DNA of 64,000 nt, from the NCBI GenBank assembly GCA_016936575.1, contig JAFGXQ010000045.1:70664-134663 (forward strand), given 5' to 3'. Each line of letters begins with the position of its first letter. Within the stretch, counting starts at the first letter, position 1. This document shows positions 11,988 through 62,282 of the stretch, piece after piece. Under the pieces are notes generated by a model. The model had not been told where the DNA came from. It saw nothing but the letters and a program-made list of their open reading frames with translations, and did not search any database. The position numbers were made by a program, and so were the translations under genes. Origin of the DNA: Deltaproteobacteria bacterium (GTDB lineage: Bacteria > Myxococcota_A > Polyangia > JAAYKL01).

Positions 11988-12174
11988 GAAAGTCACCTCC
12001 ATTGCATCTGTGCTGCACACTTGCAGCAACACCGTCAATACAGCCAGAACCGTGCCACTGACGCGGAGATGCGATATGCTCGATAGAATCATCATTTATT
12101 TTATTGAGACTGAATTTTTTCGACACAATTGTCGAGCCGCTCGATATTTTGGTCGAGCATCGGAATGATTGAAA

Positions 12175-15511: not shown

Positions 15512-16108
15512 CTATGACGGGTCTTTGCATTGTTCAAGAATGTCTGACTTCAAACCGGGGCAACAGGTATTCGGACCGAAGTAGGAACGCCAGATTAAAT
15601 CAGCGAAGCCTTTGCCCTTGGTGATTTGTCCCATTCGCGCGCCGTTCTGCTTCAGAAGTGTTCCCTGACCGGGAATGTAAATAATCTCCACATAACTGCC
15701 CTTATTTAAATCCTTGGTGAAATACGACAAGAATACGTTAATTTTTTTCTGCAGCTCAGTGGTGTCTTTACCCTGCGGTAAATTTTTCGTGAACGTGTCT
15801 TTCAAGTTGTCAATCAACCGCTTTTTGGGAATGGTTCGCTTCATTGACAGGATCAACGCCTTTACCTCTGACTTGTAGATCACCGACCGCATGCTGCACT
15901 CGCCGCTCTCAGAGTAGGCGCTGAGGCTGTAAATATCCACGAATAGAAATTCGCGGATCGCCGTACCCAGCAATTTGAGAGATTTTCCGGCGACGGCTTT
16001 ATTTTTCGATACTGCTCCCACCGCTGGAGACGGCGGAAACACAGTAACCATAACCAACACTGCCAGCGCGACAATGTACCCTTTTCTTGTGCACCATATT
16101 GCTTTCAT
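15512..16108 (-). CDS. Chalcone-isomerase-like fold protein (bacterial CHI-like/fatty-acid-binding type), secreted
   Basis: Signal peptide. LKLLGTAIREFLFVDIYSLSAY resembles the conserved core of bacterial chalcone-isomerase-like (Chalcone_3) proteins. Start placed at the internal MKAIWC. Confidence 0.35.
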   Translation of the reverse strand: MKAIWCTRKGYIVALAVLVMVTVFPPSPAVGAVSKNKAVAGKSLKLLGTAIREFLFVDIYSLSAYSESGECSMRSVIYKSEVKALILSMKRTIPKKRLIDNLKDTFTKNLPQGKDTTELQKKINVFLSYFTKDLNKGSYVEIIYIPGQGTLLKQNGARMGQITKGKGFADLIWRSYFGPNTCCPGLKSDILEQCKDPS

Positions 16109-16141
16109 GCGGGTTCCTTTATCGTTCAGCAAATCCGCGAC

Positions 16142-17308
16142 CTAATCTTCGCAGATTTTCAGTTGAGAAATAAACCACGGCGCGGGGATAGAACAGTCAC
16201 CGCACATCAATGCCACAATCCAAATCCCTTCGTCGGTAATACCGGTGAACGCGTTGCCGTTGTCATCTGTTAATTCAGAAAGGGTCGCATAGGTACCCGC
16301 ATCGATGGTTTTTCGCCAGATTTCATCTGCCATGTTTTCGAGATTCAGAAAATCGGATTCCAGTGCCGAAATCGTCGTATCGGTGTAGTGTGCAACCATA
16401 ATCCCGGCAATCATCGTGGGTGCGAACTCGCGCCCCATCGCGTTGTTCGTCATGCTGCCGGTCCAATCCAAATACACATCGGCGGTGCCGGGCGGCAAAA
16501 TAATCGGCTCCAGGGAACTGAGATCAGCTTCATAATCCAGTTGCACCGAATCATTGTGAATGGTTACCGTTGAATTGTTCGCATCTTCGCGCACATTGAA
16601 CAACGCGAGCATACGCGCATTTTGACCGAGAATGATGCCCGAAGAAAGCATCACCGAATACGAAAAATCTTCAGGTGGAACATTGACAGGATCCAGCAGA
16701 CTCAGCATGGAGGCTTCATCGAGCGCGGATCCCCCGGGAGAAACCAAATCCAGATAATTGAATGTCGTTGTGCTCTGTTCAGTAAAATACACAGCCGGCG
16801 GATTCGCCAAATCCTGCATTGTCCAATCATCACTATTCAACTTTTCAACCAACTCCTCTTCGTTTGCGGACCAAATGGTCACCAGTGCCATCTGTATATC
16901 GCCCTCGCCATCAAGCGGCTGCCCCAGCATGTCCTGAGTCAGATCATCCCATTGGAACGTAATATCGGTGGAGGGAGTTACCGACGTGGCTTCAATTGTC
17001 ATTTCATTGGTGAACGTGTAATTCTGTGCATCCACCAGTGCATACGACACCACGCCATCTGTGACAGGCACAACATCGCACGAAGGTGGCGGTTCGTCTG
17101 CGTCTGTATCGCTGTCGCTGTCACTGTCTCCGTCGCTATCGACATCCGAGTCGCTGTCAGTATCACCGTCACCATCGGTATCTGTATCGCTGTCACTGTC
17201 ACCATCTGTGCCGCTCTGCTCAGTGTCTGAATTACCGCCGCACGACAACATCGCACCAACGCAGAATATCAACACAAAAACAAACAACCATATTACTGTT
17301 TTCGACAT
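16142..17308 (-). CDS. Lipoprotein with a (D-S/T-D-G)n linker (hypothetical)
   Basis: Lipobox AMLSCGGNSD, then [41 protein letters not shown], then a 300-aa domain. Confidence 0.5.
   Translation of the reverse strand: MSKTVIWLFVFVLIFCVGAMLSCGGNSDTEQSGTDGDSDSDTDTDGDGDTDSDSDVDSDGDSDSDSDTDADEPPPSCDVVPVTDGVVSYALVDAQNYTFTNEMTIEATSVTPSTDITFQWDDLTQDMLGQPLDGEGDIQMALVTIWSANEEELVEKLNSDDWTMQDLANPPAVYFTEQSTTTFNYLDLVSPGGSALDEASMLSLLDPVNVPPEDFSYSVMLSSGIILGQNARMLALFNVREDANNSTVTIHNDSVQLDYEADLSSLEPIILPPGTADVYLDWTGSMTNNAMGREFAPTMIAGIMVAHYTDTTISALESDFLNLENMADEIWRKTIDAGTYATLSELTDDNGNAFTGITDEGIWIVALMCGDCSIPAPWFISQLKICED
17095..17215. repeat. In-frame tandem repeat encoding a (D-S/T-D-G)n linker (minus-strand gene)
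   Basis: Periodic gtcgctgtc / gtatcgctgtcactgtc units inside 16142..17308. Confidence 0.65.
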
Positions 17309-17347: not shown

Positions 17348-18766
17348 CTACTGCTCCAGATCCACTGGATGGCCATATAATGTAGGCCGCCAAACCACAT
17401 ATCCGAACGCGGCTTGGCCCAAATCAATTGAACGCACAAGCTGTTCGTCAGCAGCCACCTCGTGCATCAATGCTTTATTACTATACGAAACAAGTGTGTT
17501 GCCATTCGGCAAACGCTGCACATCCCCCAAGGTAGGCGTTCCGAGACCTTCCACACGATACCGCCATATCTCCCGCAACCCGCCGGTATCGCTTGAAAAC
17601 TCGTATTCCAGTGCCTCACTGGTCAGTGTCACATCTGAAAATGAACCACCATTATTGAAAATGAGAATACTGTTGTTGAGCAAATGGTGACCATGCTGAT
17701 ATTTCCACAACCCGTCATTCTGCGTCACCCACGCAACGTCTCCACTTTTATCGAATGCGACAATTTCGCCGTGCTCGTAGTCAGATACCGTAAATAACTG
17801 TTCGGCCATGGAGTAGCGTAACGCATTGCCGTGACACCCGGTTCCCCACGTATCGGCGGTATCGTATATCAAACCGATGTTGCCGTTGGTATCCAACGAC
17901 ATCACACGCGCGCAAACCGCTGAGTTTCCAAATCCGCCTTCCGGAGTGTATTCCAACCAGGCGAACGTGTTGTCATCTACAGGGGTCAAGTCATGCGCGG
18001 CACCCGTCAGCGACGTGAACTGTTTTACTTCCTGGCCATCCATTGACACCAGTTCCACAGCACCGGCGTTTCCCTGATTATTACTCGATACTACCGCCAT
18101 CCATTTGCCGTCGTAGCTCATTCGAGCCCTGGTGCTGTCGCTAAGCGCTGTTGCAGCGTACCACCAAACGATATCGCCGTCGTTGTCTATAATGAATGCC
18201 ATAGGGTTCTGCGAAAAAGAGGCCGCAGTATACGACGCCAAAACGAAAAATCCGGGGGCGACCGACGCTGATTGCGCTACAATGATATCGGCTCGCTGAA
18301 TCACGTTCGTTACCGGTTCAGTCGTGATCACCACATCATGACTGCGATACGTTGTTCCATCAATTACCGCATTCACGCGAACATGGTAGTCAGAAGACCC
18401 CTTCATACCCAGAAGCAATGTTCTGAAATATTCCGCGGTTAACTCCACTGGTGCGGTCATTCCATACTCGCTATCCAACCCGAAGTCGATGGTCGCCGCA
18501 TCGATTTCGTTATCAACATTCGTTGACCATTCCACAATGCCCACTGTTCCGATGGCGTCACTGAGGTTCACAGACACCTCAAACGTGATGTCTCTATCTC
18601 CCGCATCAGTATTGGCATCCGTATTGTCAACTTCAGTTCCGCGGTCGCTATCGTCGGAATCGTCCGAGCGCATACCATCGCCGGCAGCTCTTTCACTGGA
18701 GCAGCTCATCCAGAATACTGCTCCACAAAGTATCGCTAGAAATGTTATGGTTATAGACGCGCGCAT
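17348..18766 (-). CDS. Arylsulfotransferase (ASST)-like beta-propeller lipoprotein with an N-terminal Ig/FN3-like domain
   Basis: Lipobox WMSCSSE and an acidic linker. Propeller region with QHGHHLLNNSILIFNNG and RLPNGNTLVSYS motifs (HH...NGN pattern of the ASST/Arylsulfotran_2 type). Paralog of the adjacent gene. Confidence 0.45.
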   Translation of the reverse strand: MRASITITFLAILCGAVFWMSCSSERAAGDGMRSDDSDDSDRGTEVDNTDANTDAGDRDITFEVSVNLSDAIGTVGIVEWSTNVDNEIDAATIDFGLDSEYGMTAPVELTAEYFRTLLLGMKGSSDYHVRVNAVIDGTTYRSHDVVITTEPVTNVIQRADIIVAQSASVAPGFFVLASYTAASFSQNPMAFIIDNDGDIVWWYAATALSDSTRARMSYDGKWMAVVSSNNQGNAGAVELVSMDGQEVKQFTSLTGAAHDLTPVDDNTFAWLEYTPEGGFGNSAVCARVMSLDTNGNIGLIYDTADTWGTGCHGNALRYSMAEQLFTVSDYEHGEIVAFDKSGDVAWVTQNDGLWKYQHGHHLLNNSILIFNNGGSFSDVTLTSEALEYEFSSDTGGLREIWRYRVEGLGTPTLGDVQRLPNGNTLVSYSNKALMHEVAADEQLVRSIDLGQAAFGYVVWRPTLYGHPVDLEQ

Positions 18767-18787
18767 TTAAAATTCGTTTTGCCTCTA

Positions 18788-20560
18788 CTACATGATAACG
18801 TCAGTCGGAGGCCCGTACAGGGTTGGACGCCACACCACATACCCGAACGCGGTCTGCCCGAAGTTGTATTCCCGCACCATCGTTTGAGAGGAATCCACCT
18901 CATGAATAATGGCCTGGTTGCTATAGGCAACAATTGTGTTGTTATTCGGCAATCGCTGAATATCACCCAGGGTGGGAGTTCCCATATTCGGTACACTGTA
19001 ACTCCATACAAGGCTCATATTTCCTCCGCCACTCATGCTGAACTCCATGCCAACACTGGTCAGATTCACATCGGTAAAAGTACCGGCATTATTGAAGATC
19101 AATAGATTGCCGTTATTCAGCAGCTGGTGCCCGTGCTGCGGTCCCCATGAACCATCATTTTGCGTCAGCCACGAGACATTACCGTTTTTGTCAAATGCAA
19201 CAATCTGATGATGTTCATAGTCGGATACGGTAAATAACCCTTCCGCCTCTGAATACCGCAAGGAATTGCCGTGACAGTTGGCCCCCCAGGTATTTGCGGT
19301 GTCATAAATCAAACTGGTGTTGCCGTTTACATCCAGCGACATCACTCTTGCACATGCGGTCGACATAATGCCGCCGGTGCTTGGTACGTACTCCAGATAT
19401 GCAAAATTGTTGTCGTCAGTCACTGTCAAATCATGCGCGGCGCCTGTCAGAGAGGTAAACTGTTTTACCTCCAACCCGTCCATCGAAATCAGTTCCACCG
19501 ACCCTGCGGTTCCATTGTTGTTGCTCGAAACTACCGCCATCCATTTGCCATCGTAGCTCATACGCGCACGAGTGCTGTCTGCCAGTGATGTGGCGGTGTG
19601 CCACCATACAATGTCGCCGTCCGTATCGGCAATAAATGCCATCGGATTCTGCATCCATGAATTTGCCGAATATGATGCGAGGACCATGAATCCTTCACCG
19701 GGTGTGGTCCCGGCATGACTATCGGTAACCGTTGCGGCCTGTATGGCATTGGTCACCGGCCCGGTCGTGACGTTGTAATCTGGGCTGGTATATGTATTAC
19801 CGTCAATCTCAATTACCACGCGCAAATGGTAGGTGCGTGAGCCTTTCATTCCGAGAAGCAGGGTTCTGAAATCTTGTGCGTGCAAGTCTACCGGCGCTTC
19901 CATTCCGTATGCGGTATCCAGACCGAATTCGATATAGGCGCTGTCGATTTGGTCATCGACATTCGTCGACCATGTGACAATCCCAACGGTGCCGATGGCG
20001 CTGCTGGTAGATGGGTTCACCGTAAATGTAACATCCGTGTCGCTGTCACTGTCAGCATCACTGTCGCTATCTGTATCGCTGTCGCTGTCGGCATCACTGT
20101 CAGTATCACTGTCACTGTCGGTATCGCTGTCGCTGTCAGTATCGCTGTCGGTATCACTGTCACTGTCGGTATCGCTGTCACTATCACTATCGCTATCGGT
20201 ATCGCTGTCGCTGTCGCTATCAGTATCACTATCGCTATCGGTATCACTATCGCTATCGGTATCACTATCGCTATCGGTATCACTATCGCTATCGGTATCA
20301 CTATCGCTATCGCCATCGCTATCAGAATCTCCGTCGCTGTCGGCATCGCCATCGCCATCGCCGTCGGAGTCACTGTCGCTATCGCCGTCAGAGTCGCCAT
20401 CACCGTCAGAATCACTATCCCCATCCGAATCACCATCCGAATCACCATCCGAATCACCATCCACATATACCACGTTACCTTCATCTGTCGTACAGCCCGC
20501 CAGTTGGATTGCCGCCAGTACCGCGCTGAGCCAAAGCACAACGAAAATTGAATATTTCAT
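18788..20560 (-). CDS. ASST-like beta-propeller lipoprotein with a very long (~150 aa) poly(D-S/G/T) linker
   Basis: Lipobox QLAGCTTDE, then [13 protein letters not shown]...[13 protein letters not shown] (~150 aa), then FN3-like and propeller parts with [19 protein letters not shown] and [12 protein letters not shown]. About 60% identical to 17348..18766 over the propeller. Confidence 0.45.
20030..20460. repeat. ~430-nt in-frame tandem repeat array encoding ~150 aa of (D-S/G/T)n, including 5 perfect tandem copies of an 18-nt unit at 20223..20312
   Basis: Unit gtatcactatcgctatcg is repeated five times without mismatch. Degenerate 6/12/18-nt units flank it. Inside 18788..20560. Confidence 0.8.
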
Positions 20561-20653: not shown

Positions 20654-21484
20654 TCAGGGACGCTCCAGATATTCAGTTGTAAAATATAAATCTTTTGTAT
20701 TGGGTATATTTTCTATCTTTTCGATTTTAAAAATTGATTTTCTGCCGTTTTGTTTGTTCGTCATTTCCATATACTTTGATCGATATCTTTTTTTCAACTC
20801 GTCAAGGCATTCAATATTTTTGCTTTTCAGCTCTTTCAGCAGCTCCCCTTCCAAATCAAAATACAGCGCTTTTCGAATGGTATATTCTTCTTTCGCGATC
20901 CAGATTTTCTTTTTTGAATACCCTTCGTCCTCAGCAACGTCTTCATTTTTAGGTTTAACTTCAATCAGCCAACACGAAACACCATCCACCGCTTCTTCCT
21001 TCAGTGTTCTAAACGTGTAGTCTGTCAGCGTCGGTGTGTTCATATCGGCGTATGAAAACTCGCTTCCCATAAATGCCTTGGAACGTTCTGATGTGACAAT
21101 CCGCCGGGTTTTTCTGAGTGCAGGCAGATAAATCCACATATCATCCCCTTTATTTTCATAATCGAACGCAAGCACACCTGTTCCTTTGACGTCCGCCGGC
21201 GATAAGAACCGATATACCCGTTTTTCAGTCTTACCGTTGTCGAATAGTTTGGTAACCATCGCTATCTTGCGCTCTCGCTTTTCGCCTTTTCCGTTCTGAA
21301 TAATCAGCTTCATCACCGCCTCAGAACCATCCAGTTTGCGCGACAATGCAGCGTTTTCCATAATTTCTTTTGCCGTGAGCGTCGCCCCTGCATCTGCATT
21401 CATACCAGCGGAAATCACCAATCCAACAATAACCCCCAACACAAGCATGTTCGAAAACAAATATCGTCCTACTCTCATATCCAT
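20654..21484 (-). CDS. Outer-membrane lipoprotein-sorting (LolA-like, DUF1329-type) protein
   Basis: 276 aa with a signal peptide. It sits immediately downstream of an MMPL/RND exporter, as is typical for LolA-fold partners of MMPL-family exporters. Family assignment is by context and overall composition. Confidence 0.45.
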   Translation of the reverse strand: MDMRVGRYLFSNMLVLGVIVGLVISAGMNADAGATLTAKEIMENAALSRKLDGSEAVMKLIIQNGKGEKRERKIAMVTKLFDNGKTEKRVYRFLSPADVKGTGVLAFDYENKGDDMWIYLPALRKTRRIVTSERSKAFMGSEFSYADMNTPTLTDYTFRTLKEEAVDGVSCWLIEVKPKNEDVAEDEGYSKKKIWIAKEEYTIRKALYFDLEGELLKELKSKNIECLDELKKRYRSKYMEMTNKQNGRKSIFKIEKIENIPNTKDLYFTTEYLERP

Positions 21485-21519: not shown

Positions 21520-23841
21520 CTACGCCGCGCCGGGTAATTCCTCGGTCGAATTTCCACTCTCTGTAGGCTCCAGAAATTTTGGTTTAAATACAATCACCAC
21601 TGCCGGCAGCACCACCAGCGCACCGATAAGACACGAGACAATAGAAACCACCACCAGTAACCCGAAAAACTGTACAGGAAAAAACTGCGACAGAAGCAAC
21701 ACCACAAACCCAACCACCACCGAAAAACCATTGAACAGGATTCCCCGTCCCGCCGAACGCAATGTTATTTTCACCGCATCCATCGGTTCCGCCAGCCTGC
21801 GTTCCTCGCGATAACGCCACAGAAAATGAATGGTGTAATCAATGCCAACACCAATCATAATCGATGAAAGCATCGCGGTAATCAAATTCAATTCAATGCC
21901 CCAATACCCCATCAACCCGAACAATATTGAAACAGCAATTCCCAAAGGAATCATCGAAATCAGCCCCGCAACAACCGATCGCATTACAGCGCCTACCAAC
22001 ACACCACACAGGAGAATAGACAAAAACAAACTCAACAACTGCCCCCGTACGATGTAATCCACCATGTTGGTAATCACATCCAATAAACCGCCCACAATCG
22101 TGAACGGTGCCTGAGGATGGGCATCAATGTACGCCTGTGTGTAATGGACCACATCGGTTGCCGCCCGGGTTCCACTGTCTCGTACCTGCGCAAGGATTTG
22201 CGCATTGCGATAATTGAAGTCTACGAGTTTATTGAAATCCTCAATATCGCCGCTAAGCGAGTACAGCAGAAAGTACTGCGCAATCAAATCTCGTTTGTCC
22301 GGAACTTTATCCGCAGATGCGGCGTTGTCGTTCATTACTCTGTTCATTCCGCGCACCATTGCGGCGATTGATGATGTGGTACCCACCAGTGGATGCTTTT
22401 TCAGATGCCTTTCCAGTTTATCGATTTCCTTCATCACCGCAGGGTCTTTGATGTCGCCCTTGGCAACGATCGACACATTCGCCCACCCTCCGAAATGTTC
22501 ATTCAACATATGGGTGGCGCGCCAAACCGGATCGTTTTTTTTGTAAAAACTCATCGGATTGCTGTCTACAACAATAAATGCCGCACCTGTTGCAAATGCC
22601 ACGAGCAGAACCCCGCTGATGATTAAAATTCCTCTGGATTTTTTTGACGCGACATCCCCTATGAAATTCAACAAGCGACTCATCAATGTCGCCACATCCT
22701 GAATCTTTTTTTCTTTTTTCTTCTTCGATTTCGATTTCGGCAATACTGCCAATACCGCGGGAATAAACACCAAGCTGCCCACCATTGCAAAGGCAACACC
22801 GGCAGCAGCCAGAATTCCCAGCTGCTCTGCCGGAATGATGATATGCGAGAGCAGACAAAGAAGCCCCACCATCGTGGTGATTCCGCTTGCCAGAATGGGT
22901 TGATTTAAATGCTGAACAGTCGCATGGGCAAGCTGCTTCGAATCGAGTTCCTTGTTTTCAGCACGTTCTTCCTGATATCTCGCCATAATGTGAATTCCGT
23001 AATCATTTGCCACAGCAAGAAGGATTACGGGAAGCAACACGGTGACAGTATGAATTTTCCATCCGAGGAACGCGAGCAGACCAAGCGCAAACACGATTGC
23101 CATCACTGTCATAATAAACGGCATCAACACGCCGCGTGCTTCCCGGAAACATAACAGCAAGAAAATAAACATCAGCACCAAACCGACCGGAAGAAAACGA
23201 GACATGTCCTTTCGAATATCTTTCGAAAGCTTCACGCGGGTAACCGGCATCCCACCAATTAACGCATCTCCGGGCCCTTTCGTCTGTTTAATCAGTTGCT
23301 CCAGCTGACCAACCACTTTTTCATCTGAAGCGTCCGTCGCCAGAAAACCGATAAGCACCGTGTGTTTGAAATCCTTCGATACGATGTTCCCGTACACCAA
23401 CTCATTTTCTTTTAAATCATGACGTAGCGTTTCCTTCTGCTTCTCGCTTTTCGGTATACGGCGAATCGCCTGTTCCACCACCAGCTCTCCGCATTCGGCA
23501 CTGATATGTTTGGCGGTGAAAAGAGTGATTACCCGATCGAACTCTTTGATATGTTCAAACTTTTTCGACATTTCCTTCAACCGGTGAATCACGTCGATAT
23601 CGAGAATATCATCGGCAGAAAGCACAATCATGATCATATCGGTTCCACCGAACAGCTTTTCAATTTGGGTCAGATTTTTTCGAGTGGGCAAATCCACAGG
23701 CAGTTGATTCTTCATCTCCGTATCCAACTCAATGTGCCGAAGTTGAAAAGCAGCGGCAACCGTAACTGCAACAAAAATAACGATAATCGGCCAGGGGTGT
23801 GAGGTGACAAAATTTGCAAAACTGTTCTTCCGCTGTTTCAT
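21520..23841 (-). CDS. MMPL/RND-superfamily exporter (two 6-TM bundles, two periplasmic loops)
   Basis: 773 aa. N-terminal TM helix, a large periplasmic domain, a TM block (GLVLMFIFLLLCF...), a second periplasmic domain, then a second TM block ending in VVLPAVVIVFKP. Layout is typical of HpnN/MmpL-like exporters. Confidence 0.65.
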   Translation of the reverse strand: MKQRKNSFANFVTSHPWPIIVIFVAVTVAAAFQLRHIELDTEMKNQLPVDLPTRKNLTQIEKLFGGTDMIMIVLSADDILDIDVIHRLKEMSKKFEHIKEFDRVITLFTAKHISAECGELVVEQAIRRIPKSEKQKETLRHDLKENELVYGNIVSKDFKHTVLIGFLATDASDEKVVGQLEQLIKQTKGPGDALIGGMPVTRVKLSKDIRKDMSRFLPVGLVLMFIFLLLCFREARGVLMPFIMTVMAIVFALGLLAFLGWKIHTVTVLLPVILLAVANDYGIHIMARYQEERAENKELDSKQLAHATVQHLNQPILASGITTMVGLLCLLSHIIIPAEQLGILAAAGVAFAMVGSLVFIPAVLAVLPKSKSKKKKEKKIQDVATLMSRLLNFIGDVASKKSRGILIISGVLLVAFATGAAFIVVDSNPMSFYKKNDPVWRATHMLNEHFGGWANVSIVAKGDIKDPAVMKEIDKLERHLKKHPLVGTTSSIAAMVRGMNRVMNDNAASADKVPDKRDLIAQYFLLYSLSGDIEDFNKLVDFNYRNAQILAQVRDSGTRAATDVVHYTQAYIDAHPQAPFTIVGGLLDVITNMVDYIVRGQLLSLFLSILLCGVLVGAVMRSVVAGLISMIPLGIAVSILFGLMGYWGIELNLITAMLSSIMIGVGIDYTIHFLWRYREERRLAEPMDAVKITLRSAGRGILFNGFSVVVGFVVLLLSQFFPVQFFGLLVVVSIVSCLIGALVVLPAVVIVFKPKFLEPTESGNSTEELPGAA

Positions 23842-23854: not shown

Positions 23855-25402
23855 CTAGAACGATAATTTCATTTCCGCGTATCCGGCGCTCTGCAACTGA
23901 TCGATCATTCCGAACAATGTATCATCAGGCCCCATGTACAATTCCGCACCTACGCTGACCGTCATATCGTCGACCAACTTGTACGCAATTTTCGGGTACA
24001 CCAACCACTCTCCGGTTGAAAAGTTCGCCATACCGAACGCCACGAGAGAAAGTGTGTCGTGCAGCGTTGTCCAGGTGATACGCAACGACGCACCGTGCTG
24101 AATCTTTTCTGTATGGCCGTGAATCAGCTGATTTTTTACCGCCAATTCCCGGTACGCCATATAACTTCGCGTTTCCTCCGGAATGAATCCATAATTCTGA
24201 ATCACGGTATCCAGATGATCCAGGTCCAAATCCATGGCCAGAGAATTGATAAATTCCTCAATGGTGCTGTCACCGTCCGGTACGGTTTCCCAATCAAGTA
24301 CATATCGCCCGATATATTGACCGATAAGCAACACATTACCGATTTCCTTGTCCGCTCCAAGTACATAGTACACATCAGGCTTCGGAACATGAATACGCTG
24401 GTCACGAATGCTCGGTTTCTCGGTGGGGTACCGAAACGCAGCCTCTCCTCGCAGTCCGAATAGAGAAGCAATCGTGGTAGAAAAATCGGCCCCCACCACG
24501 TGATGTTTGTATGCACGACGCGAAACCGTCACCGATGCCGGAACGTCTGTAAGCTGGTACGACTCGAGCGACAGACCCGGCGTTAAAGAAAAGCCGTACA
24601 AATACGAAAGCGACATCTCGAACGATGAGAAAATCAGATGCGTCTTTCCGGCAATCAATCCGTTCAACACATCAAAGTCAGGATACACCGGGTCGCTAAA
24701 AACAATAGCATCTGACAACGCCACTTTCGGCATTACCGACGGAACATATATGGGCATCCACACGACTTCCAAGCGCAATGGGTTCAAGTTCAACCGCGCA
24801 CGCAATCCGATGTTGGCCAAACGCCGGTCGTCTTCTTCAGGCGAGCGAACCCGAATATCGACAGGTGTGATACTATTTGTTGGATTGATGCCATCGGCGC
24901 GTCCCCAAACAACAATCTGTTGACCCAGCCTCAGTTCCAAGCGACTGAGGTATAGATTGACATACGCTTCACGAAGCATAATTGATGTGTCAAACTCGCC
25001 TATCGACTCTCCTCCGCCCGATCGTTCTGTAGGTTGTCCCAGATATGTTTCATCATTCAAGTACCCTCCTTTCAATCGAAGCTCGGCGAAACCGTCCGTC
25101 ATCCGTTCTTTCACCGCCCGTAACTTCAACGCCAGTTCCCCATACCCTGTTTTCAGCTCAGCCCTGGGCTGTCGCGGCATTTTTCCGACAAACACGTCGC
25201 CGCGGATGTAGCCGTTCAAATCGAATGTCAAAGGATTCTGTACGACCGTTTCGGTTGATTCCCCATTGGAATCCACAGGCGATGCAGGGGCGGTATCTGT
25301 TTCATTCCCCGAAACCGCGTCGTCGAACAATCCGGCCGAAGCGATACCGGGTATGTGCGCAAGAATAAGAAATCCAATCAGTGCCTTAATACCATGTTTC
25401 AT
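23855..25402 (-). CDS. Outer-membrane beta-barrel protein (DUF1302-like)
   Basis: Signal peptide. LRLGQQIVVWGRADGINP resembles the DUF1302 conserved block. Alternating amphipathic strands. C-terminal ...AEMKLSF with a terminal Phe (OMP signature). Adjacent to the MMPL exporter. Confidence 0.4.
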   Translation of the reverse strand: MKHGIKALIGFLILAHIPGIASAGLFDDAVSGNETDTAPASPVDSNGESTETVVQNPLTFDLNGYIRGDVFVGKMPRQPRAELKTGYGELALKLRAVKERMTDGFAELRLKGGYLNDETYLGQPTERSGGGESIGEFDTSIMLREAYVNLYLSRLELRLGQQIVVWGRADGINPTNSITPVDIRVRSPEEDDRRLANIGLRARLNLNPLRLEVVWMPIYVPSVMPKVALSDAIVFSDPVYPDFDVLNGLIAGKTHLIFSSFEMSLSYLYGFSLTPGLSLESYQLTDVPASVTVSRRAYKHHVVGADFSTTIASLFGLRGEAAFRYPTEKPSIRDQRIHVPKPDVYYVLGADKEIGNVLLIGQYIGRYVLDWETVPDGDSTIEEFINSLAMDLDLDHLDTVIQNYGFIPEETRSYMAYRELAVKNQLIHGHTEKIQHGASLRITWTTLHDTLSLVAFGMANFSTGEWLVYPKIAYKLVDDMTVSVGAELYMGPDDTLFGMIDQLQSAGYAEMKLSF

Positions 25403-25403
25403 G

Positions 25404-26873
25404 TCAGAACCTGTACGATAATGCGAGCGATGAAAAGTGATAACTGCTCACATATACTCCGCTATTCGCTGTGGCTGAGGGCTGTTCAGGATAGTGGGCA
25501 TCGCAATTGTTGTTATCGGTATACGGCGCCTCACAAAAGCTTCCCGGAACTTGTTGATAAATCTGTCCGTTACTTTCGCTCATTGAAAATGGAATTTCAT
25601 ATACATAGGTGTATGACAGGGACACATCAAATCTTCCCAATATCAATGTTGTGCCCGCGCTCGCACCGAGTCGATGGGTGGCGGGAAAATCCACATAGGC
25701 AAAATTCTTTCTACTCGCTGCTGTTTCATAGAATGTACCTGCACGTATAATAAGACGATTGTCTATCACGTTCATGTCACCCCCAAACCGCACACTGAAC
25801 GTGTTTTTCCAGTGTTTCGGTATGACAATCTCTCCGACTTCAACACTGACCCCCATGACATCAGCGTACAGTCCCTTGCCGTCGATGATGTATTCATCCA
25901 TCTGGGACCAGAACTCATAGCGAACATCAAGTTCCAAGTCGTACAGATCTCTCTTTCCGCGCAAATGAATGTATCTCGCACCTGCCCGCAGCTCCATCGG
26001 AAGGGTCATTGCAAACGTCACGTTGTTATCAGGATTGTCGTTTCTGCTGAGCTCCGGCGCTTCTTCAAGAGAAAGAAACACTGGTGTGAGCGAAAGCTCG
26101 CTGTCCGCGTGTAGATAAGTAGGAATCAGCCGTCCGGAAAACGCCAGTTGAAAAGAAGGCATTGGATGCACCCAGAATCCGAGAATTGCCGAAATCCCGG
26201 TATGGTCTGCGCCTTTCACAGTAGCCGCCATATCAAACAGGCTGGAAACCGGGCTGACCTGCCCGGGAGTCGTATCTCCGTTCACAATTAATTGCAATTC
26301 CAACTGTGCCAAATCCACCCACTGCAGACTGACCCCCACACCGAACACATCCTTGTACCGCCATGCCGCACTGAGGCTGTAATACAGAATTTTTGTATCC
26401 CGCCGTGTCAACATATAGCGCTGACCACCGTCTTGCGAAAATTCCTGCGTGGAAATACCGGCCGGTGCGTAGGTTCCCAACGCAAACGCCCAGCTCTGAA
26501 GGCCGAAATCCGTCGATACGACAATCATCGGCCCGAGCAACTGCCAAGTGTGCTCGTTATTCACAGTGTCAAATGTTACGTAGTCGGGAATACCCTCGCC
26601 GGCCTCGCTCCAGTCCAGTAAAGGCGCACGCCTGAATTGTTCATGCGCGTAACCGAACCGATTACTCAGATATAGTTGCGTGCCGTGTAGAGATGTCAAT
26701 CCCGCGGGGTTATATTCAATGGCGGTGGCATCATCAGCTTTAGCAACAAAGGCACCACCTCGACCAGCGGCCACCGCGCCCTGATCTCCCACCGATATTC
26801 CAGCAGACAACACATCATTCGAAAACATGACGATGATTCCCCCCAACGCGCATAGAACAATAAAAAAAGCCAT
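25404..26873 (-). CDS. FadL/OmpP1/TodX-family outer-membrane hydrophobic-compound channel
   Basis: Signal peptide (MAFFIVLCALGG...), N-terminal ...ADDATAIEYNPAGLT (NPA-type hatch motif of FadL), and a long beta-rich body ending ...LSYRF. Start moved to the internal Met to remove overlap with the upstream gene. Confidence 0.5.
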   Translation of the reverse strand: MAFFIVLCALGGIIVMFSNDVLSAGISVGDQGAVAAGRGGAFVAKADDATAIEYNPAGLTSLHGTQLYLSNRFGYAHEQFRRAPLLDWSEAGEGIPDYVTFDTVNNEHTWQLLGPMIVVSTDFGLQSWAFALGTYAPAGISTQEFSQDGGQRYMLTRRDTKILYYSLSAAWRYKDVFGVGVSLQWVDLAQLELQLIVNGDTTPGQVSPVSSLFDMAATVKGADHTGISAILGFWVHPMPSFQLAFSGRLIPTYLHADSELSLTPVFLSLEEAPELSRNDNPDNNVTFAMTLPMELRAGARYIHLRGKRDLYDLELDVRYEFWSQMDEYIIDGKGLYADVMGVSVEVGEIVIPKHWKNTFSVRFGGDMNVIDNRLIIRAGTFYETAASRKNFAYVDFPATHRLGASAGTTLILGRFDVSLSYTYVYEIPFSMSESNGQIYQQVPGSFCEAPYTDNNNCDAHYPEQPSATANSGVYVSSYHFSSLALSYRF

Positions 26874-26922
26874 CTGAAACTGTCGATGCGGCCGATAGAA
26901 CACAGTCACCCCTTTGCCTCTC

Positions 26923-27918
26923 CTATACCCCTGTACAATCCGCTGACATGGTGTTTCTGAACAACGAAGTAACATCTTCAGCTTCAAAGAAAGCCGATAG
27001 TCGATAACCGATTCGCCCATCCGCTGTCACACAGCTGGGTACGATTTCAGCTGCATCCATAATTCCGCGAAAGGTCGCCCAGTTTCCATTTTGCCCACAG
27101 GCGCTGGCGCAATAGCCCGAAATCGCTTCCACTGAAAACGATTCAAACGGATCTTCCGGCGGTGTCGGAAAACCGGTTTCCGGTAAAGCGCCGTCTTTAC
27201 TGCACAATCCGGCCTTGATACACATACAAATTTGATTGACCGACTCCTGCGGCAGGCACCCTTCAAGATGCCCCGACGAAATCTGACTACAGTTTTCATT
27301 AAAACCGAACGTAACATGCAGATCATGAATCGGCGTGCTGTTCGCGGGAGACAACAACGGCGCACACATCAGAGGATCAGTCTGCGGCCCCAAATGAAAA
27401 TATAACGTCTGTGCCTCGGTGTTTCTGAATCTGCACTGATAACCGTTTGACGGAATGACATCAACGCCGATATTCAACGATTCATCCATAAAACAATACG
27501 ACTCAATCGTCGAAAAATCATCGTTTGAATATCCGGTAGAAGGCGTGCGCCAGGCCGGGCCCACACTCAATTGCAGCCTGGAGAAGGCCGCGAGTTCGTC
27601 GTCATCGGCTTCTGCAATGTCAACCACGAACAGCACATTCAGCAGGTAATTCGAAATCTCGTATTCCCACATGCTGTCGAGTGTCACGTTCAGCCTGGCC
27701 GGTTGGTCAACGGTTAAACGGGTAAATCGATAGGCCCGGCCTGTCACGTCCTCGGGCGTGCAGTTGCACTGAGTATTCTCCCCTGTCGCATCGCCTTGGA
27801 TAAAGACATCCGGAGCCGGCGGCTCAATAATGTCCACACAAGCAACAACGGTCATCATCGCAACGGCCAATGTAGTTGTCAGCCTATACGCCTGCGACGT
27901 TCTCACCGCTCTCTTCAT
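26923..27918 (-). CDS. Hypothetical secreted lipoprotein (Cys-containing)
   Basis: Internal start MKRAVRTSQAYRLTTTLAVAMMTVVAC (signal plus lipobox). No recognisable domain. Confidence 0.35.
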   Translation of the reverse strand: MKRAVRTSQAYRLTTTLAVAMMTVVACVDIIEPPAPDVFIQGDATGENTQCNCTPEDVTGRAYRFTRLTVDQPARLNVTLDSMWEYEISNYLLNVLFVVDIAEADDDELAAFSRLQLSVGPAWRTPSTGYSNDDFSTIESYCFMDESLNIGVDVIPSNGYQCRFRNTEAQTLYFHLGPQTDPLMCAPLLSPANSTPIHDLHVTFGFNENCSQISSGHLEGCLPQESVNQICMCIKAGLCSKDGALPETGFPTPPEDPFESFSVEAISGYCASACGQNGNWATFRGIMDAAEIVPSCVTADGRIGYRLSAFFEAEDVTSLFRNTMSADCTGV

Positions 27919-27955: not shown

Positions 27956-28756
27956 CTATTCTGCGCACTCCGCACTTGCTGCTACGACTTCTGTCAACTG
28001 AAGACCTGAAACGACCTGACCAGTTACATTACTTGCGGTAAGATGCATGCAGAACAACTCGCCGTCATGTTCGCATTCTTCACATGCAAATCCCATCGTC
28101 GGCGCAGTGTTGCAAATCTTTTCAGGCGTGGGGTCTGTAAACATGATTGTAAACAGTTCGTAAATATCTCTGAAATCAACTGTGGCTTTGAGGGTACCAT
28201 CGATAAATGCATCTCCTCCGTTCACCAGAGACCCTGAAATACTCAAATCATGAATGGTTGCTACTTCGAAGGCACCATTTCCTTCAATAACGGTTTCCAG
28301 ATTTGTCGGACCAATCAGAAAATCGGGATTGTCCGCAATCGTGCCGCTGCACGAGGCCGTGGCACTACACATATCCTGCACACCGTCATTCATCGTTCCC
28401 ATCGAAGTCGTCAGCGCGGATTGAGCGATTTCTACAACGGTAAAGGCAAATATCGGAACATATCCGCCCAACTCCGCCCCCACACCGGACGGTGTCCAGT
28501 TTGCAGCCGGAATTTCATCCAGGGCATAGGTATTCGCCAAAATAACACTAACGTCTTCCAGGGGCGTTGCATCTAAAGTTTCGCTGGGGGTATCTGATTC
28601 CGAATCCACATCGGTTCCGCTGTCAGATGCAGTGTCACTATCGTTCGTGTCGATATTATCAGAATCATCGGCCTCATCCCCGGTTTTGTCGCCACAACTC
28701 AGCAGTAGCAGACAAAACAACCCTACCAATCCGGACAATTTCAATTGCGTTTCCAT
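27956..28756 (-). CDS. Lipoprotein with an acidic D/S/T linker (hypothetical)
   Basis: LLLLSCGDKTGDEADDSDNIDTNDSDTASDSGTDVDSESDTPSE, then a 200-aa domain with six Cys. Confidence 0.5.
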   Translation of the reverse strand: METQLKLSGLVGLFCLLLLSCGDKTGDEADDSDNIDTNDSDTASDSGTDVDSESDTPSETLDATPLEDVSVILANTYALDEIPAANWTPSGVGAELGGYVPIFAFTVVEIAQSALTTSMGTMNDGVQDMCSATASCSGTIADNPDFLIGPTNLETVIEGNGAFEVATIHDLSISGSLVNGGDAFIDGTLKATVDFRDIYELFTIMFTDPTPEKICNTAPTMGFACEECEHDGELFCMHLTASNVTGQVVSGLQLTEVVAASAECAE

Positions 28757-29812: not shown

Positions 29813-30023
29813 TGAATTGTTCCTGTATGTGTTTCCAGAAATCGTCCATGCAAGACAGCTCAGCATGTAAAGCCGTCTTAATCGAAGATTTAAACAATGG
29901 TGCGAACGAAGCGAGGAAAGGGGTTGATATAAATGAACCTTTTTTACTTATTCTTTTTACAGAGGAAAATGATTGCAGCTTATTTGAAAAATTTCGTTCA
30001 TCTCAAATCATTTCAACATTCTG

Positions 30024-33165: not shown

Positions 33166-33490
33166 ATCGCTCCGTATCCCCATTCAGATTCAAAGGATTA
33201 GTCCGTTCAAAACATACTTTTCGTGCCAACCCATAGGCAACCATCCAAACAGTACCGCCACCATCTACAACGGCTCAAAGGGATTGCGCGCACGCACAAA
33301 ATGACCAGATTTGGACATTGAAGAGAAAAACTGTACACAACACGAAGGCGTGAATTCTCACATTTAAAAGAAGTGAAACTGAGGCCCAACGACAACAGTT
33401 CTGATTTCATTGACCCATGAATACTGACGTTATTATTTGGCATGAAAGTTGAGTAGAAACATCCAAAACTCAAACGCAGGAGCATTTCCT

Positions 33491-41369: not shown

Positions 41370-41373
41370 CGGC

Positions 41374-62276: not shown

Positions 62277-62282
62277 TCCTCT

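What the first reader, a model, noticed from the sequence alone, without database searches (positions are those of the whole stretch)
17348..20560. Tandem paralogous ASST-like beta-propeller lipoproteins, one with an expanded linker
The two adjacent genes share an FN3-like domain plus a propeller with HH...NGN motifs typical of periplasmic aryl-sulfate sulfotransferases. One carries a ~150-aa poly(Asp-Ser/Gly/Thr) tether and the other only ~25 aa. Duplicated periplasmic sulfotransferases next to a lipid export module suggest extracytoplasmic trans-sulfation of an exported substrate. Tether lengths diverge after duplication.
Basis: partly seen in the sequence, partly recalled or inferred. Interest (0 to 1): 0.5.

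Follow-up and report, generated by a model that had tools for sequence, protein, structure and literature searches.

The report
Tethered sulfotransferase pair in sulfo-lipid export cluster
Two neighbouring genes encode membrane-tethered enzymes of the aryl-sulfate sulfotransferase fold, and they belong to a conserved gene cluster that also makes, sulfates and exports a lipid, which suggests how these bacteria could carry activated sulfate out of the cell.

Summary
Two adjacent minus-strand genes, A (17348-18766, 472 aa) and B (18788-20560, 590 aa), are 66% identical paralogs. Each has a signal peptide with a lipobox cysteine, an acidic low-complexity tether (37 vs 153 aa), an FN3-like sandwich and a six-bladed propeller.

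They pass both Pfam ASST models. A family profile matches Cpz4 and E. coli ASST, and a confident AlphaFold model finds these two as its best structural matches. The sulfo-histidine nucleophile and three further active-site residues are invariant. The sulfate-binding Arg374 is Tyr in both proteins.

The larger result lies outside the given coordinates. A and B sit in a co-directional 12-gene cluster (15.5-31.1 kb) with a membrane-anchored PAPS-type sulfotransferase, a KASIII/OleA-like condensing enzyme, an MMPL/HAE3 exporter, a LolA-like carrier, DUF1302 and FadL barrels, and a conserved partner lipoprotein. All seven KASIII-anchored contexts examined, including the window, contain an ASST-like gene. 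Some also carry PAPS-synthesis genes.

Best reading (about 0.5): an envelope version of the caprazamycin two-step sulfation, in which an exported sulfated lipid feeds tethered transferases outside the cytoplasm. No biochemistry exists. I call it a new variant of a known kind.

The parts
18788..20560 (-). ASST-like lipoprotein B (590 aa). Signal peptide and lipobox Cys23 at 20492-20560. Acidic D/S/T/G tether (aa 24-176) at 20033-20491. FN3-like domain at about 19760-20032. Six-bladed propeller at about 18791-19759. Active-site equivalents are H376, H430, N432 and H476; the Arg374 position is Y448.
17348..18766 (-). ASST-like lipoprotein A (472 aa). Signal peptide and Cys22 at 18701-18766. Short acidic tether (aa 23-59) at 18590-18700. 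FN3-like domain at about 18317-18589. Propeller at about 17351-18316. Active-site equivalents are H258, H312, N314 and H358 (codon 17693-17695); the Arg374 position is Y330. C285 and C311 are an invariant pair.
16142..17308 (-). Partner lipoprotein 'lipo388' (388 aa): lipobox, about 50-aa D/S tether, then a roughly 310-aa beta-rich domain with no Pfam match and no fold match. Its family lies directly beside ASST-like genes in 19 of 80 loci.
15512..16132 (-). Secreted chalcone-isomerase-like protein (PF16036 Chalcone_3), a putative periplasmic lipid binder. It recurs in L008, L018 and L090.
20654..21484 (-). LolA-like / TP_0789-like periplasmic carrier (PF17131, with a weak DUF1329 match).
21520..23841 (-). 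MMPL-family RND transporter, closest to HAE3 (TIGR00921, 319 bits, below its cut-off).
23855..25402 (-). DUF1302 outer-membrane beta-barrel protein.
25404..27020 (-). FadL/Toluene_X-type outer-membrane channel for hydrophobic compounds. The NCBI gene call is 25404-26909.
26923..27918 (-). 331-aa exported protein with no Pfam match ('p331'). It keeps the same position in L088 and L089.
27956..28756 (-). 266-aa D/S-tethered lipoprotein with no Pfam match ('lipo266'). It recurs in 13 related loci.
28790..29866 (-). KASIII/OleA-like thiolase-fold condensing enzyme with Cys-His-Asn motifs present (NCBI start at 29812). It falls below the cut-offs of all NCBIfam FabH and DarB models.
30024..31103 (-). 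PAPS-type sulfotransferase (PF13469/PF00685) with a conserved N-terminal hydrophobic anchor, a 5'-phosphosulfate loop GNPRSGTTF and an ARDP...S motif.

Best explanation
A and B are two old tandem paralogs of a large, Polyangia-centred subfamily of the PAPS-independent aryl-sulfate sulfotransferase (ASST) fold. They are exported, lipid-anchored and held on acidic disordered tethers of 37 and 153 residues.

They are the extracytoplasmic end of a conserved gene cluster that I read as an envelope-spanning two-step sulfation pathway:
1. In the cytoplasm, a KASIII/OleA-like condensing enzyme builds a lipidic enol or phenol head group from acyl thioesters.
2. A membrane-anchored PAPS-dependent sulfotransferase sulfates that head group.
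3. The MMPL/HAE3 transporter, the LolA-like and chalcone-isomerase-like carriers, and the DUF1302 and FadL-type barrels move the sulfated lipid across the envelope.
4. The tethered ASST-like enzymes, together with the partner lipoprotein lipo388, take the sulfuryl group onto His358 (His476 in B) and pass it to acceptors where PAPS is unavailable.

Shown here: fold, paralogy, conserved catalytic residues, gene content and conserved linkage.
Inferred: the chemical nature of the lipid, the direction of transport, the donor role of the lipid, and the acceptors.
For: Family and fold:
- Both proteins exceed the gathering thresholds of PF05935 and PF14269.
- The family profile hits Cpz4 (9KF4, E = 1.2e-12) and E. 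coli ASST (3ELQ, E = 1.4e-7). hhalign against E. coli AssT gives 96.4% probability.
- The AlphaFold model has pLDDT 93 and pTM 0.93, with six four-stranded blades.
- Its best PDB matches are ASST (E = 2e-17, TM 0.7, including the N-terminal sandwich) and Cpz4 (E = 1e-11). Generic propellers follow only at about 1e-8.

Active site:
- The equivalents of His252, His356, Asn358 and the sulfo-His436 are invariant in 43 family members.
- They are present in 92-97 of 99 further family ORFs.
- They sit at the starts of the innermost strands of blades 3, 4 and 5.

Cluster content in the window:
- A PAPS-type sulfotransferase (PF13469, 6e-14) and a KASIII-like enzyme lie upstream in the same co-directional cluster as the MMPL, LolA-like, DUF1302 and FadL genes.

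Conserved linkage:
- Among 80 ASST-anchored loci, the lipo388 family is adjacent in 19, KASIII is present in 10, and MMPL/DUF1302/LolA-like in 4-6.
- All 6 KASIII-anchored contexts, plus the window, contain an ASST-like gene within 10 kb even though gene order differs. Three of them also hold the sulfotransferase.
- L092 carries an APS kinase. L093 carries CysD and a CysN/CysC fusion inside the cluster.

Precedent:
- In caprazamycin biosynthesis, pyrones made by the type III PKS Cpz6 are sulfated by the PAPS-dependent Cpz8 and then serve as donors for the ASST-type Cpz4 (PMC4257720, PMC4924298).
Against: - No biochemical data exist for any member of this subfamily.
- Arg374, which coordinates the sulfuryl group in E. 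coli ASST (PMC13426309), aligns with Tyr in A and B. It is Arg in only 32 of 101 family members.
- The condensing enzyme is KASIII/OleA-like, not a type III PKS. Nothing shows that it makes an aryl or enol product whose sulfate would be a good leaving group.
- The sulfotransferase is not next to the KASIII gene in the two closest relatives, L088 and L089.
- 61 of 99 ASST-like ORFs examined lie in loci with no cluster gene within 10 kb.
Confidence: 0.5

Rival explanations
1. The sulfated lipid is itself the end product, an outer-membrane or secreted sulfolipid as in mycobacterial MmpL8-dependent sulfolipid export. The ASST-like lipoproteins only remodel it outside the cell. They would add, move or remove sulfate on the lipid, possibly using other aryl sulfates as donors, rather than using the lipid as a general donor.
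For: - The sulfotransferase is most similar to a mycobacterial-type Stf enzyme (2Z6V).
- MMPL transporters are lipid exporters.
- The OleA/FabH-like enzyme need not make an aryl product.
- Characterised ASTs accept aliphatic alcohols and sugars as acceptors (PMC13426309).
Against: - It does not explain why a second, PAPS-independent sulfotransferase type is kept in every cluster examined.
- It does not explain why genomes hold many extra ASST-like paralogs away from the cluster.
- The only characterised system that combines a thiolase-superfamily enzyme, a PAPS sulfotransferase and an ASST-type enzyme uses the small lipid as donor.
Confidence: 0.2
2. The propeller proteins are non-catalytic scaffolds or substrate-handling components of the export machine. 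They would play the role of the BNR/Ycf48-like propeller in the known DUF1302-DUF1329-propeller-RND four-gene module.
For: - That four-gene module includes a periplasmic beta-propeller of unknown role (bioRxiv 10.1101/072470).
- Arg374 is missing in A and B.
- Some cluster-associated paralogs have lost the His252 and His356 equivalents.
Against: - A and B keep all four aligned catalytic residues. Across the family these are the most conserved positions, which is not expected of a mere scaffold.
- The degenerate copies always coexist with intact ones.
Confidence: 0.12
3. The subfamily uses the conserved His triad for different chemistry, for example transfer or hydrolysis of another acidic group through a covalent histidine intermediate, or a metal site formed by H258, H312, H358 and H360. 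In that case the sulfur-related neighbours reflect the substrate rather than sulfuryl transfer by these proteins.
For: Family-specific features are absent from E. coli ASST and Cpz4: a further near-invariant His360 (HGH), Asp259, Asp415, Glu436, Arg418, a Cys285/Cys311 pair, and loss of Arg374.
Against: - The nearest relatives by sequence and by fold are both sulfotransferases.
- The cluster contains PAPS-pathway genes.
- No metal-enzyme fold appears among the top structural matches.
Confidence: 0.08
4. These are ordinary periplasmic detoxifying ASSTs, of the gut-bacterial type, that merely happen to lie beside lipid-export genes.
For: NCBI already names protein A 'aryl-sulfate sulfotransferase'. 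Most paralogs in the family are not next to the cluster.
Against: - All seven KASIII-anchored contexts, from different assemblies and with rearranged gene orders, contain an ASST-like gene within 10 kb.
- My rough estimate, not a computed value, is that a random 20-kb window would contain one only about 2% of the time, assuming about ten paralogs in a genome of about 10 Mb.
- A dedicated partner lipoprotein is adjacent in 19 of 80 loci.
Confidence: 0.05

Closest known systems
E. coli CFT073 periplasmic aryl-sulfate sulfotransferase AssT (PDB 3ELQ, 3ETS, 4P04)
   Same: - N-terminal beta-sandwich plus six-bladed propeller.
- Exported from the cytoplasm.
- Best structural match of the model (E = 2e-17, TM about 0.7).
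- His252, His356, Asn358 and the sulfo-His436 align with invariant residues.
   Different: - About 12% sequence identity.
- Lipoprotein on a disordered tether rather than a soluble protein.
- No DsbL/DsbI genes alongside, and the Cys418-Cys424 loop is absent. A different invariant Cys pair (C285, C311) is present instead.
- Arg374 aligns with Tyr.
- An extra conserved His360 is present.
- Dimer formation was not tested.
Caprazamycin two-step sulfation in Streptomyces: Cpz6 (type III PKS), Cpz8 (PAPS sulfotransferase), Cpz4 (ASST-type; PDB 9KF4/9KF6)
   Same: The same three enzyme roles are encoded together: a thiolase-superfamily condensing enzyme, a PAPS-type sulfotransferase and an ASST-fold enzyme. 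Cpz4 is the closest solved relative by sequence profile (E = 1.2e-12).
   Different: - The condensing enzyme here is KASIII/OleA-like, not a chalcone-synthase-type PKS.
- The ASST-like enzymes are extracytoplasmic lipoproteins.
- A complete envelope transport set (MMPL, LolA-like, DUF1302, FadL) lies between the two sulfation steps.
- There is no nucleoside-antibiotic pathway.
- Cpz4 keeps the Arg374 equivalent.
DUF1302 - DUF1329 - BNR/Ycf48-like propeller - COG1033 RND module of Proteobacteria
   Same: It combines a DUF1302 barrel, a DUF1329/LolA-like protein, an RND/MMPL-type exporter and a periplasmic beta-propeller, and was proposed to export an envelope component.
   Different: The propeller here has the ASST fold with catalytic residues, not a BNR fold. 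The cluster also adds biosynthetic (KASIII), sulfation (PAPS sulfotransferase) and FadL components.
Mycobacterial sulfolipid pathway (Stf0, Pks2, MmpL8). This comparison rests on my own knowledge, not on a tool result.
   Same: A PAPS-dependent Stf-type sulfotransferase and an MMPL transporter act on a lipid that is exported to the cell envelope.
   Different: There is no ASST-type second sulfotransferase, a different envelope architecture, and a trehalose-based lipid.
Lipid-linked donors for periplasmic glycosylation (undecaprenyl-phosphate sugars used by GT-C enzymes). This is a conceptual analogue, from my own knowledge.
   Same: The logic is shared: an activated group is loaded onto a lipid in the cytoplasm, moved across the membrane, and used by extracytoplasmic transferases because the nucleotide-activated donor is absent there.
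   Different: The chemistry, carrier and enzyme families all differ. The sulfate version is hypothetical.

Membership tests
PAPS-independent aryl-sulfate sulfotransferase (ASST; PF05935/PF14269; E. coli AssT type) | Score above the curated thresholds of the family HMMs | tested here: met
   A scores 47.8 bits on PF05935 and 30.5 on PF14269. B scores 37.6 and 29.3. The cut-offs are 24.2 and 27.
PAPS-independent aryl-sulfate sulfotransferase (ASST; PF05935/PF14269; E. coli AssT type) | N-terminal beta-sandwich followed by a six-bladed beta-propeller | tested here: met
   The AlphaFold model (pLDDT 93) shows 6 x 4 strands after an FN3-like sandwich. Foldseek aligns the whole length to 3ELQ, 3ETS and 4P04 with E = 2e-17 and TM 0.7.
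PAPS-independent aryl-sulfate sulfotransferase (ASST; PF05935/PF14269; E. coli AssT type) | Catalytic histidine that forms the sulfo-histidine intermediate (His436) | tested here: met
   It aligns with His358 of A and His476 of B. It is invariant in 43 of 43 family members and present in 97 of 99 further ORFs. Formation of the intermediate itself is not testable here.
PAPS-independent aryl-sulfate sulfotransferase (ASST; PF05935/PF14269; E. coli AssT type) | Sulfuryl-coordinating residues His252, His356 and Asn358 | tested here: met
   They align with H258, H312 and N314 of A, and with H376, H430 and N432 of B. They are invariant or near-invariant.
PAPS-independent aryl-sulfate sulfotransferase (ASST; PF05935/PF14269; E. 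coli AssT type) | Sulfuryl-coordinating Arg374 | tested here: not met
   It aligns with Tyr330 in A and Tyr448 in B, both by hmmsearch and by hhalign. The family column is R in 32 of 101 members and otherwise L, V, W or Y. A substitute arginine (R215 or R418) could not be checked without model coordinates.
PAPS-independent aryl-sulfate sulfotransferase (ASST; PF05935/PF14269; E. coli AssT type) | Thr501 in the active site | tested here: inconclusive
   hhalign places it at Leu413. A Ser/Thr column (40 of 43) lies three residues earlier, and the loop alignment is unreliable.
PAPS-independent aryl-sulfate sulfotransferase (ASST; PF05935/PF14269; E. coli AssT type) | Essential Cys418-Cys424 disulfide made by a co-encoded DsbL/DsbI pair (specific to the E. 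coli enzyme) | tested here: not met
   That loop is absent in the alignment and no Dsb genes lie in the cluster. The family has its own invariant pair, Cys285 and Cys311. A DsbA/GILT-like lipoprotein lies about 17 kb away.
PAPS-independent aryl-sulfate sulfotransferase (ASST; PF05935/PF14269; E. coli AssT type) | Ping-pong sulfuryl transfer between phenolic donors and acceptors without PAPS | not testable with these tools
   This requires an enzyme assay.
Two-step sulfation system (Cpz6/Cpz8/Cpz4 type) | A PAPS-dependent sulfotransferase encoded together with an ASST-type enzyme | tested here: met
   Window 30024-31103 matches PF13469 (6e-14) and PF00685 (1e-7) and carries a PSB loop. The same pairing occurs in L049, L079, L090, L091 and L092.
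Two-step sulfation system (Cpz6/Cpz8/Cpz4 type) | A type III polyketide synthase that makes the pyrone sulfate carrier | tested here: not met
   The co-encoded condensing enzyme hits only the ACP_syn_III and Thiolase models. Its best PDB relatives are OleA and FabH, with MxnB and CorB only weakly matched. It belongs to the same thiolase superfamily but to a different family.
Two-step sulfation system (Cpz6/Cpz8/Cpz4 type) | The sulfated small molecule serves as donor for the ASST-type enzyme | not testable with these tools
   This is inferred only from conserved linkage and from the precedent.
DUF1302/DUF1329/propeller/RND envelope export module | Co-encoded DUF1302 barrel, DUF1329/LolA-like protein and COG1033-type RND transporter | tested here: met
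   PF06980, PF17131 (plus weak PF07044) and PF03176/TIGR00921 lie in adjacent genes. The set recurs in L008, L018, L049, L079 and L088-L092.
DUF1302/DUF1329/propeller/RND envelope export module | BNR/Ycf48-like propeller as the fourth component | tested here: not met
   The propellers here have the ASST fold. No BNR model is hit.
Bacterial lipoprotein | Signal peptide ending in a lipobox with an invariant Cys | tested here: met
   B has ...AAIQLAGC (Cys23), which is canonical. A has ...AVFWMSC (Cys22), which is non-canonical at position -3 but aligns with FIGC in the L008 orthologue. A lipobox-like motif occurs in 68 of 115 homologues as annotated. Lipidation itself is not testable here.

The most novel reading that the evidence does not exclude
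Polyangia-type bacteria use a lipid-linked aryl or enol sulfate as an exported carrier of activated sulfate. It is made by a KASIII-like enzyme plus a membrane-anchored PAPS sulfotransferase. It is moved across the envelope by the MMPL, LolA-like, DUF1302 and FadL proteins. It is then consumed by a large, diversified set of tethered ASST-fold lipoproteins, which sulfate different extracytoplasmic acceptors. This would be a sulfate counterpart of undecaprenyl-phosphate sugar donors. It would also supply the first physiological donor, and so a physiological role, for a bacterial ASST family outside antibiotic biosynthesis.
Probability: 0.35. Interest if true: 0.85.

Novelty: new variant of a known kind. 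Interest (0 to 1): 0.6.

Why it matters
A recent review states that the physiological role and natural substrates of bacterial PAPS-independent aryl sulfotransferases remain poorly understood (PMC13426309). PAPS is made in the cytoplasm, so sulfation outside it needs another donor.

This cluster places ASST-fold lipoproteins in conserved linkage with a dedicated PAPS-dependent sulfotransferase, a lipid-forming condensing enzyme, PAPS-synthesis genes and an envelope lipid transporter. That gives a concrete candidate donor pathway, and each step can be tested by expression, mass spectrometry and gene knock-outs.

If the model is right, it would define a way of exporting activated sulfate. It would explain the large expansion of this family in predatory and degradative myxobacteria. 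It would also provide new PAPS-free sulfation catalysts with natural donors.

If the model is wrong, the pair is still a well-characterised new subfamily of the ASST fold, with a changed active-site residue and a conserved partner protein of unknown fold.

Tried and rejected
- phmmer of protein A alone against PDB sequences found nothing at E <= 1. A family profile was needed.
- I suspected that p331 (26923-27918) was a lipo388 paralog. BLASTP shows no similarity.
- The promoter and terminator scan of 14.5-34 kb did no better than shuffled sequence. The operon structure therefore rests only on co-direction and short gaps.
- Recent gene conversion between A and B is rejected. Nucleotide identity is 65%, only 47% of same-amino-acid codons are identical, and the longest exact match is 20 nt.
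- The jackhmmer search seeded with the 555-aa deacetylase-like lipoprotein was contaminated, spuriously hitting ASST-like proteins. I discarded it.
- Arg317 ('NALRY') as a substitute for Arg374. It is anticorrelated with Arg at the Arg374 column. However, it lies five residues down the innermost strand of blade 4, away from the entry face, so I do not rely on it.
- Literature searches for 9KF4, 2Z6V/STF9 and any description of an ASST + KASIII + sulfotransferase + MMPL cluster found nothing relevant.
- Model coordinates are not exposed by the tools, so no distances could be measured.

Full report
**1. The observation**

Two ORFs lie on the minus strand exactly where the finding states. A is 17348-18766 (472 aa) and B is 18788-20560 (590 aa), and they are 21 nt apart. 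BLASTP aligns 413 residues at 66% identity with E = 0.

Both proteins begin with a signal peptide that ends in a cysteine. B has LAGC (Cys23). A has WMSC (Cys22), which aligns with a canonical FIGC in its orthologue in L008.

An acidic low-complexity tether follows. It is 153 aa in B (D 48%, S 28%, T 10%, G 8%) and 37 aa in A. The B tether is encoded by degenerate 6/18/36/48-nt tandem repeats.

The window is contig JAFGTB010000154.1 of a 'Deltaproteobacteria' MAG, GCA_016934495.1. NCBI already names protein A 'aryl-sulfate sulfotransferase', although its start at Met20 cuts off the signal peptide.

**2. Family and fold**

Both proteins exceed the gathering thresholds of PF05935 and PF14269. 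A single-sequence search of the PDB found nothing. A profile built from 43 family members (A1) did find relatives:
- Cpz4, the Streptomyces caprazamycin sulfotransferase (9KF4/9KF6), at E = 1.2e-12.
- E. coli ASST (3ELQ) at E = 1.4e-7.
- For the N-terminal part, tenascin FN3 domains at E = 1e-4.

hhalign of A1 against the E. coli CFT073 AssT precursor, taken from the RefSeq genome, gives 96.4% probability over 233 columns.

The AlphaFold model is confident (pLDDT 93.1, pTM 0.93). It shows a beta-sandwich followed by six four-stranded blades. Foldseek against the PDB ranks the E. coli ASST entries first (E about 2e-17, TM about 0.7 over the whole length, including the N-terminal sandwich). Cpz4 is next (E about 1e-11). 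Unrelated propellers appear only from about 1e-8. The ASST-fold assignment is therefore solid.

**3. Active site**

A 2026 review lists the E. coli active site as the sulfated His436 plus His252, His356, Asn358, Arg374 and Thr501 (PMC13426309). The two alignments give these correspondences:

| E. coli ASST | Protein A | Protein B |
|---|---|---|
| His252 | His258 | His376 |
| His356 | His312 | His430 |
| Asn358 | Asn314 | Asn432 |
| His436 | His358 | His476 |
| Arg374 | Tyr330 | Tyr448 |
| Thr501 | not placed reliably | not placed reliably |

The first four are invariant in the 43-sequence alignment. They are present in 92-97 of 99 further family ORFs. In the model's secondary-structure map they sit at the starts of the innermost strands of blades 3, 4 and 5.

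Arg374 does not hold. The family column is Arg in only 32 of 101 members and otherwise Leu, Val, Trp or Tyr.

The E. coli Cys418-Cys424 loop is missing. The family instead has an invariant Cys285/Cys311 pair, with Cys311 immediately preceding His312. It also has family-specific conserved residues: His360, Asp259, Asp415, Arg418, Glu436, and Arg115-Thr116 in the FN3-like domain.

I could not measure geometry, because the tools do not expose model coordinates.

**4. The tethers and the duplication**

Among the 120 best homologues, a low-complexity linker between the lipobox and the FN3-like domain is the rule. Its median is about 111 aa and its range is 10-173 aa. It is S/T/G-rich in most Polyangia and D/S-rich in this lineage. 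B is therefore typical and A is unusually short, so 'expanded linker' reads the direction wrongly.

D/S tethers are also a general habit of this genome's lipoproteins. At least nine occur in the window.

The closest relative, L008, has the same order: a long-tether copy (600 aa), a short-tether copy (496 aa), then lipo388 and Chalcone_3. L018 also has a long copy followed by a short one.

Domain identities complicate the history. A-B is 65.6%, A-A' is 58.3%, B-B' is 52.9% and A'-B' is 54.3%. An unsupported NJ tree places A and B together, next to the short L008 copy. Tandem pairs in other genomes also cluster by genome.

At the DNA level A and B are 65% identical, with largely saturated synonymous positions and no exact match longer than 20 nt. 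The duplication, or the last homogenisation, is therefore old. Whether tether length diverged after duplication cannot be decided here.

**5. The surrounding cluster in the window**

All of the following genes are on the minus strand with short gaps. In transcription order they are:
- 30024-31103: PAPS-type sulfotransferase.
- 28790-29866: KASIII-like enzyme.
- 27956-28756: D/S-tethered lipoprotein lipo266.
- 26923-27918: exported protein p331.
- 25404-27020: FadL/Toluene_X channel.
- 23855-25402: DUF1302 barrel.
- 21520-23841: MMPL/HAE3 RND transporter.
- 20654-21484: LolA-like carrier.
- B, then A.
- 16142-17308: lipo388.
- 15512-16132: secreted Chalcone_3 protein.

The sulfotransferase matches PF13469 at 6e-14 and PF00685 at 1e-7. 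It has the 5'-phosphosulfate loop GNPRSGTTF and an ARDP...S motif. Its best solved relative is 2Z6V, deposited as an uncharacterised protein, which I recall as Mycobacterium avium STF9. Its orthologues share a conserved N-terminal hydrophobic helix, which suggests a membrane anchor.

The KASIII-like enzyme shows the FabH-type Cys, His and Asn motifs on direct reading. Its best PDB relatives are Xanthomonas OleA (E = 3.5e-15), then FabH. The pyrone-forming MxnB and CorB match only weakly. It falls below the cut-offs of all NCBIfam FabH and DarB models.

**6. Is the linkage conserved?**

A scan of one genome per GTDB species found 259 relatives of the ASST-like protein. The best 80 are all from Polyangia/Myxococcota-type MAGs, often with many paralogs per genome; one MAG contributes at least eight loci.

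I ran iterated HMM searches of ORFs within 10 kb on either side of the ASST-like gene in those 80 loci. The neighbour families occur as follows:

| Neighbour family | Loci out of 80 |
|---|---|
| lipo388 (directly adjacent) | 19 |
| FadL | 10 |
| KASIII | 10 |
| lipo266 | 8 |
| MMPL | 6 |
| DUF1302 | 6 |
| LolA-like | 4 |
| PAPS sulfotransferase | 2 |

The lipo388 pairing is sometimes repeated as two or three ASST+lipo388 pairs in tandem.

Anchoring on the KASIII-like gene gives a sharper picture. That gene has 569 homologues, and the best 120 listed are at least 52% identical. All six independent contexts contain an ASST-like gene within 10 kb, despite different gene orders. LolA-like occurs in 6 of 6, DUF1302 in 5 of 6, and MMPL, FadL and lipo388 in 4 of 6 each. 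The sulfotransferase is present in three of them (L090, L091, L092).

L092 has an APS kinase inside the cluster. L093 has CysD and a CysN/CysC fusion next to the KASIII and LolA-like genes.

In the two closest relatives, L088 and L089, the sulfotransferase is not adjacent. Most ASST-like paralogs, 61 of 99 ORFs, lie away from any cluster gene.

**7. Mechanism**

The one characterised system that combines these enzyme types is the caprazamycin two-step sulfation. Pyrones made by the type III PKS Cpz6 are sulfated by the PAPS-dependent Cpz8. The resulting phenolic sulfate esters serve as donors for the PAPS-independent Cpz4 (PMC4257720 and PMC4924298, both citing Tang et al. 2013).

Here the same three roles are present, with two differences. 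The ASST-fold enzymes are extracytoplasmic lipoproteins, and a full envelope lipid-transport set lies between the two steps.

My best-supported reading is therefore as follows:
1. A lipidic enol or phenol is made by the KASIII-like enzyme.
2. It is sulfated at the inner membrane.
3. It is exported.
4. A and B use it outside the cytoplasm as a sulfuryl donor, through a sulfo-histidine on His358 (A) or His476 (B).

The many unlinked paralogs would then be acceptor-specific users of the same donor pool.

Shown: the gene content, the fold, the conserved residues and the linkage. Inferred: the chemistry of the lipid, the direction of transport, the donor role and the acceptors. I put this reading at about 0.5.

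**8. Rivals**

- The sulfated lipid is the end product, and the ASST-like enzymes only remodel it (0.2).
- The propellers are non-catalytic parts of the exporter, like the BNR propeller of the DUF1302/DUF1329/RND module described from fitness data (bioRxiv 10.1101/072470) (0.12).
- The subfamily performs different chemistry with the His cluster (0.08).
- The linkage is accidental (0.05). The 7-of-7 co-occurrence argues against this.

**9. Comparison and novelty**

At the level of 'ASST-like protein' the finding is already in the public annotation. It is not a standard member of that family:
- It is tethered to a membrane.
- It has an FN3-like N-terminal domain with invariant residues.
- It lacks the Dsb partners and Arg374.
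- It has a conserved partner of unknown fold.

The cluster resembles three known systems without matching any of them: the Cpz two-step sulfation, the DUF1302/DUF1329/propeller/RND module, and, from my own knowledge, mycobacterial Stf/MmpL sulfolipid export. I found no paper describing it. I classify it as a new variant of a known kind.

**10. Dead ends**

- lipo388 could not be assigned a fold.
- p331 is unrelated to lipo388.
- Promoter and terminator scans were uninformative.
- The anticorrelation between Arg at the Arg374 column and Arg317 remains unexplained.

Noticed in passing
window 6936-7673(+), 7827-9023(+), 9039-12095(-), 14126-15478(+), 16142-17308(-), 27956-28756(-), 31516-33183(-): Acidic D/S/T/G low-complexity tethers after a lipobox are a general feature of the lipoproteins in this window, not a peculiarity of the ASST pair. 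They produce spurious NCBIfam matches to staphylococcal SD-repeat adhesins (SdrC/SdrD/ClfA/ClfB).
   Followed up: partly
window 31516-33183 (-); L008 7992-9794 (+): The 555-aa polysaccharide-deacetylase-like lipoprotein upstream of the cluster has a tether of about 230 aa interrupted by a six-cysteine mini-module ([12 protein letters not shown]...CCNAGG). The L008 orthologue of protein B has a similar six-cysteine insert in its tether (CPGTCVAQGEC...CCEY). This may be a small disulfide-knotted module embedded in the linkers.
   Followed up: no
window 58196-63251 (-): An assimilatory sulfate-reduction gene set: a CysH-like PAPS reductase, a Pyr_redox/4Fe-4S protein, a NIR_SIR sulfite reductase and a PALP cysteine-synthase-like enzyme. 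It shows that the organism handles PAPS or APS.
   Followed up: partly
window 37441-39036 (+): A 531-aa lipoprotein with GILT, Thioredoxin_4 and DSBA domains lies about 17 kb from the ASST pair. E. coli ASST needs a dedicated DsbL/DsbI oxidase, and this family has an invariant Cys pair, so this protein is a candidate oxidase. The link is not conserved as far as I checked.
   Followed up: no
L049 5755-7113, L055 6406-7767, L058 16082-18148, L075 16202-17671, L076 16114-17568, L092 1402-4760: Some cluster-associated ASST-like paralogs, usually the copy next to FadL, have lost the His252 and/or His356 equivalents. Most of them keep the His436 equivalent. They may be non-catalytic or functionally shifted copies.
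   Followed up: partly
family alignment columns 258 and 271 (A residues 317 and 330): Arg at the Arg374-equivalent column occurs in 32 of 101 members. It is anticorrelated with Arg/Lys at column 258 (4 of 32 versus 44 of 69). This could be a compensatory swap or simply phylogenetic structure. Column 258 lies well down the strand, away from the channel mouth.
   Followed up: partly
window 18707-18766: The NCBI gene call for protein A starts at Met20 (453 aa) and so removes the signal peptide. The 472-aa ORF restores a signal peptide plus lipobox. The exact 590-aa sequence of protein B is absent from the large protein collection, and its NCBI record carries no Pfam hit.
   Followed up: yes
window 9039-13188 (-) and 33449-34414 (+): Other exported repeat proteins flank the cluster: a 1018-aa TIG/Kelch lipoprotein, a 337-aa cysteine-rich lipoprotein with no Pfam match, and an RCC1-repeat protein. 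None recurs next to ASST-like genes in other loci.
   Followed up: partly
window 40365-43608 (-): The MeaB GTPase and a methylmalonyl-CoA mutase are encoded together. They are a possible source of branched or odd-chain extender or starter units, but no link to the cluster is shown.
   Followed up: no
L089 3632-6571; L093 18503-20602; L006 16915-17934: Formylglycine-type sulfatases, or an FGE-sulfatase domain protein, lie within 10 kb of the KASIII cluster or of an ASST-like gene in three related loci. This hints at sulfate-ester turnover in the same neighbourhoods.
   Followed up: no
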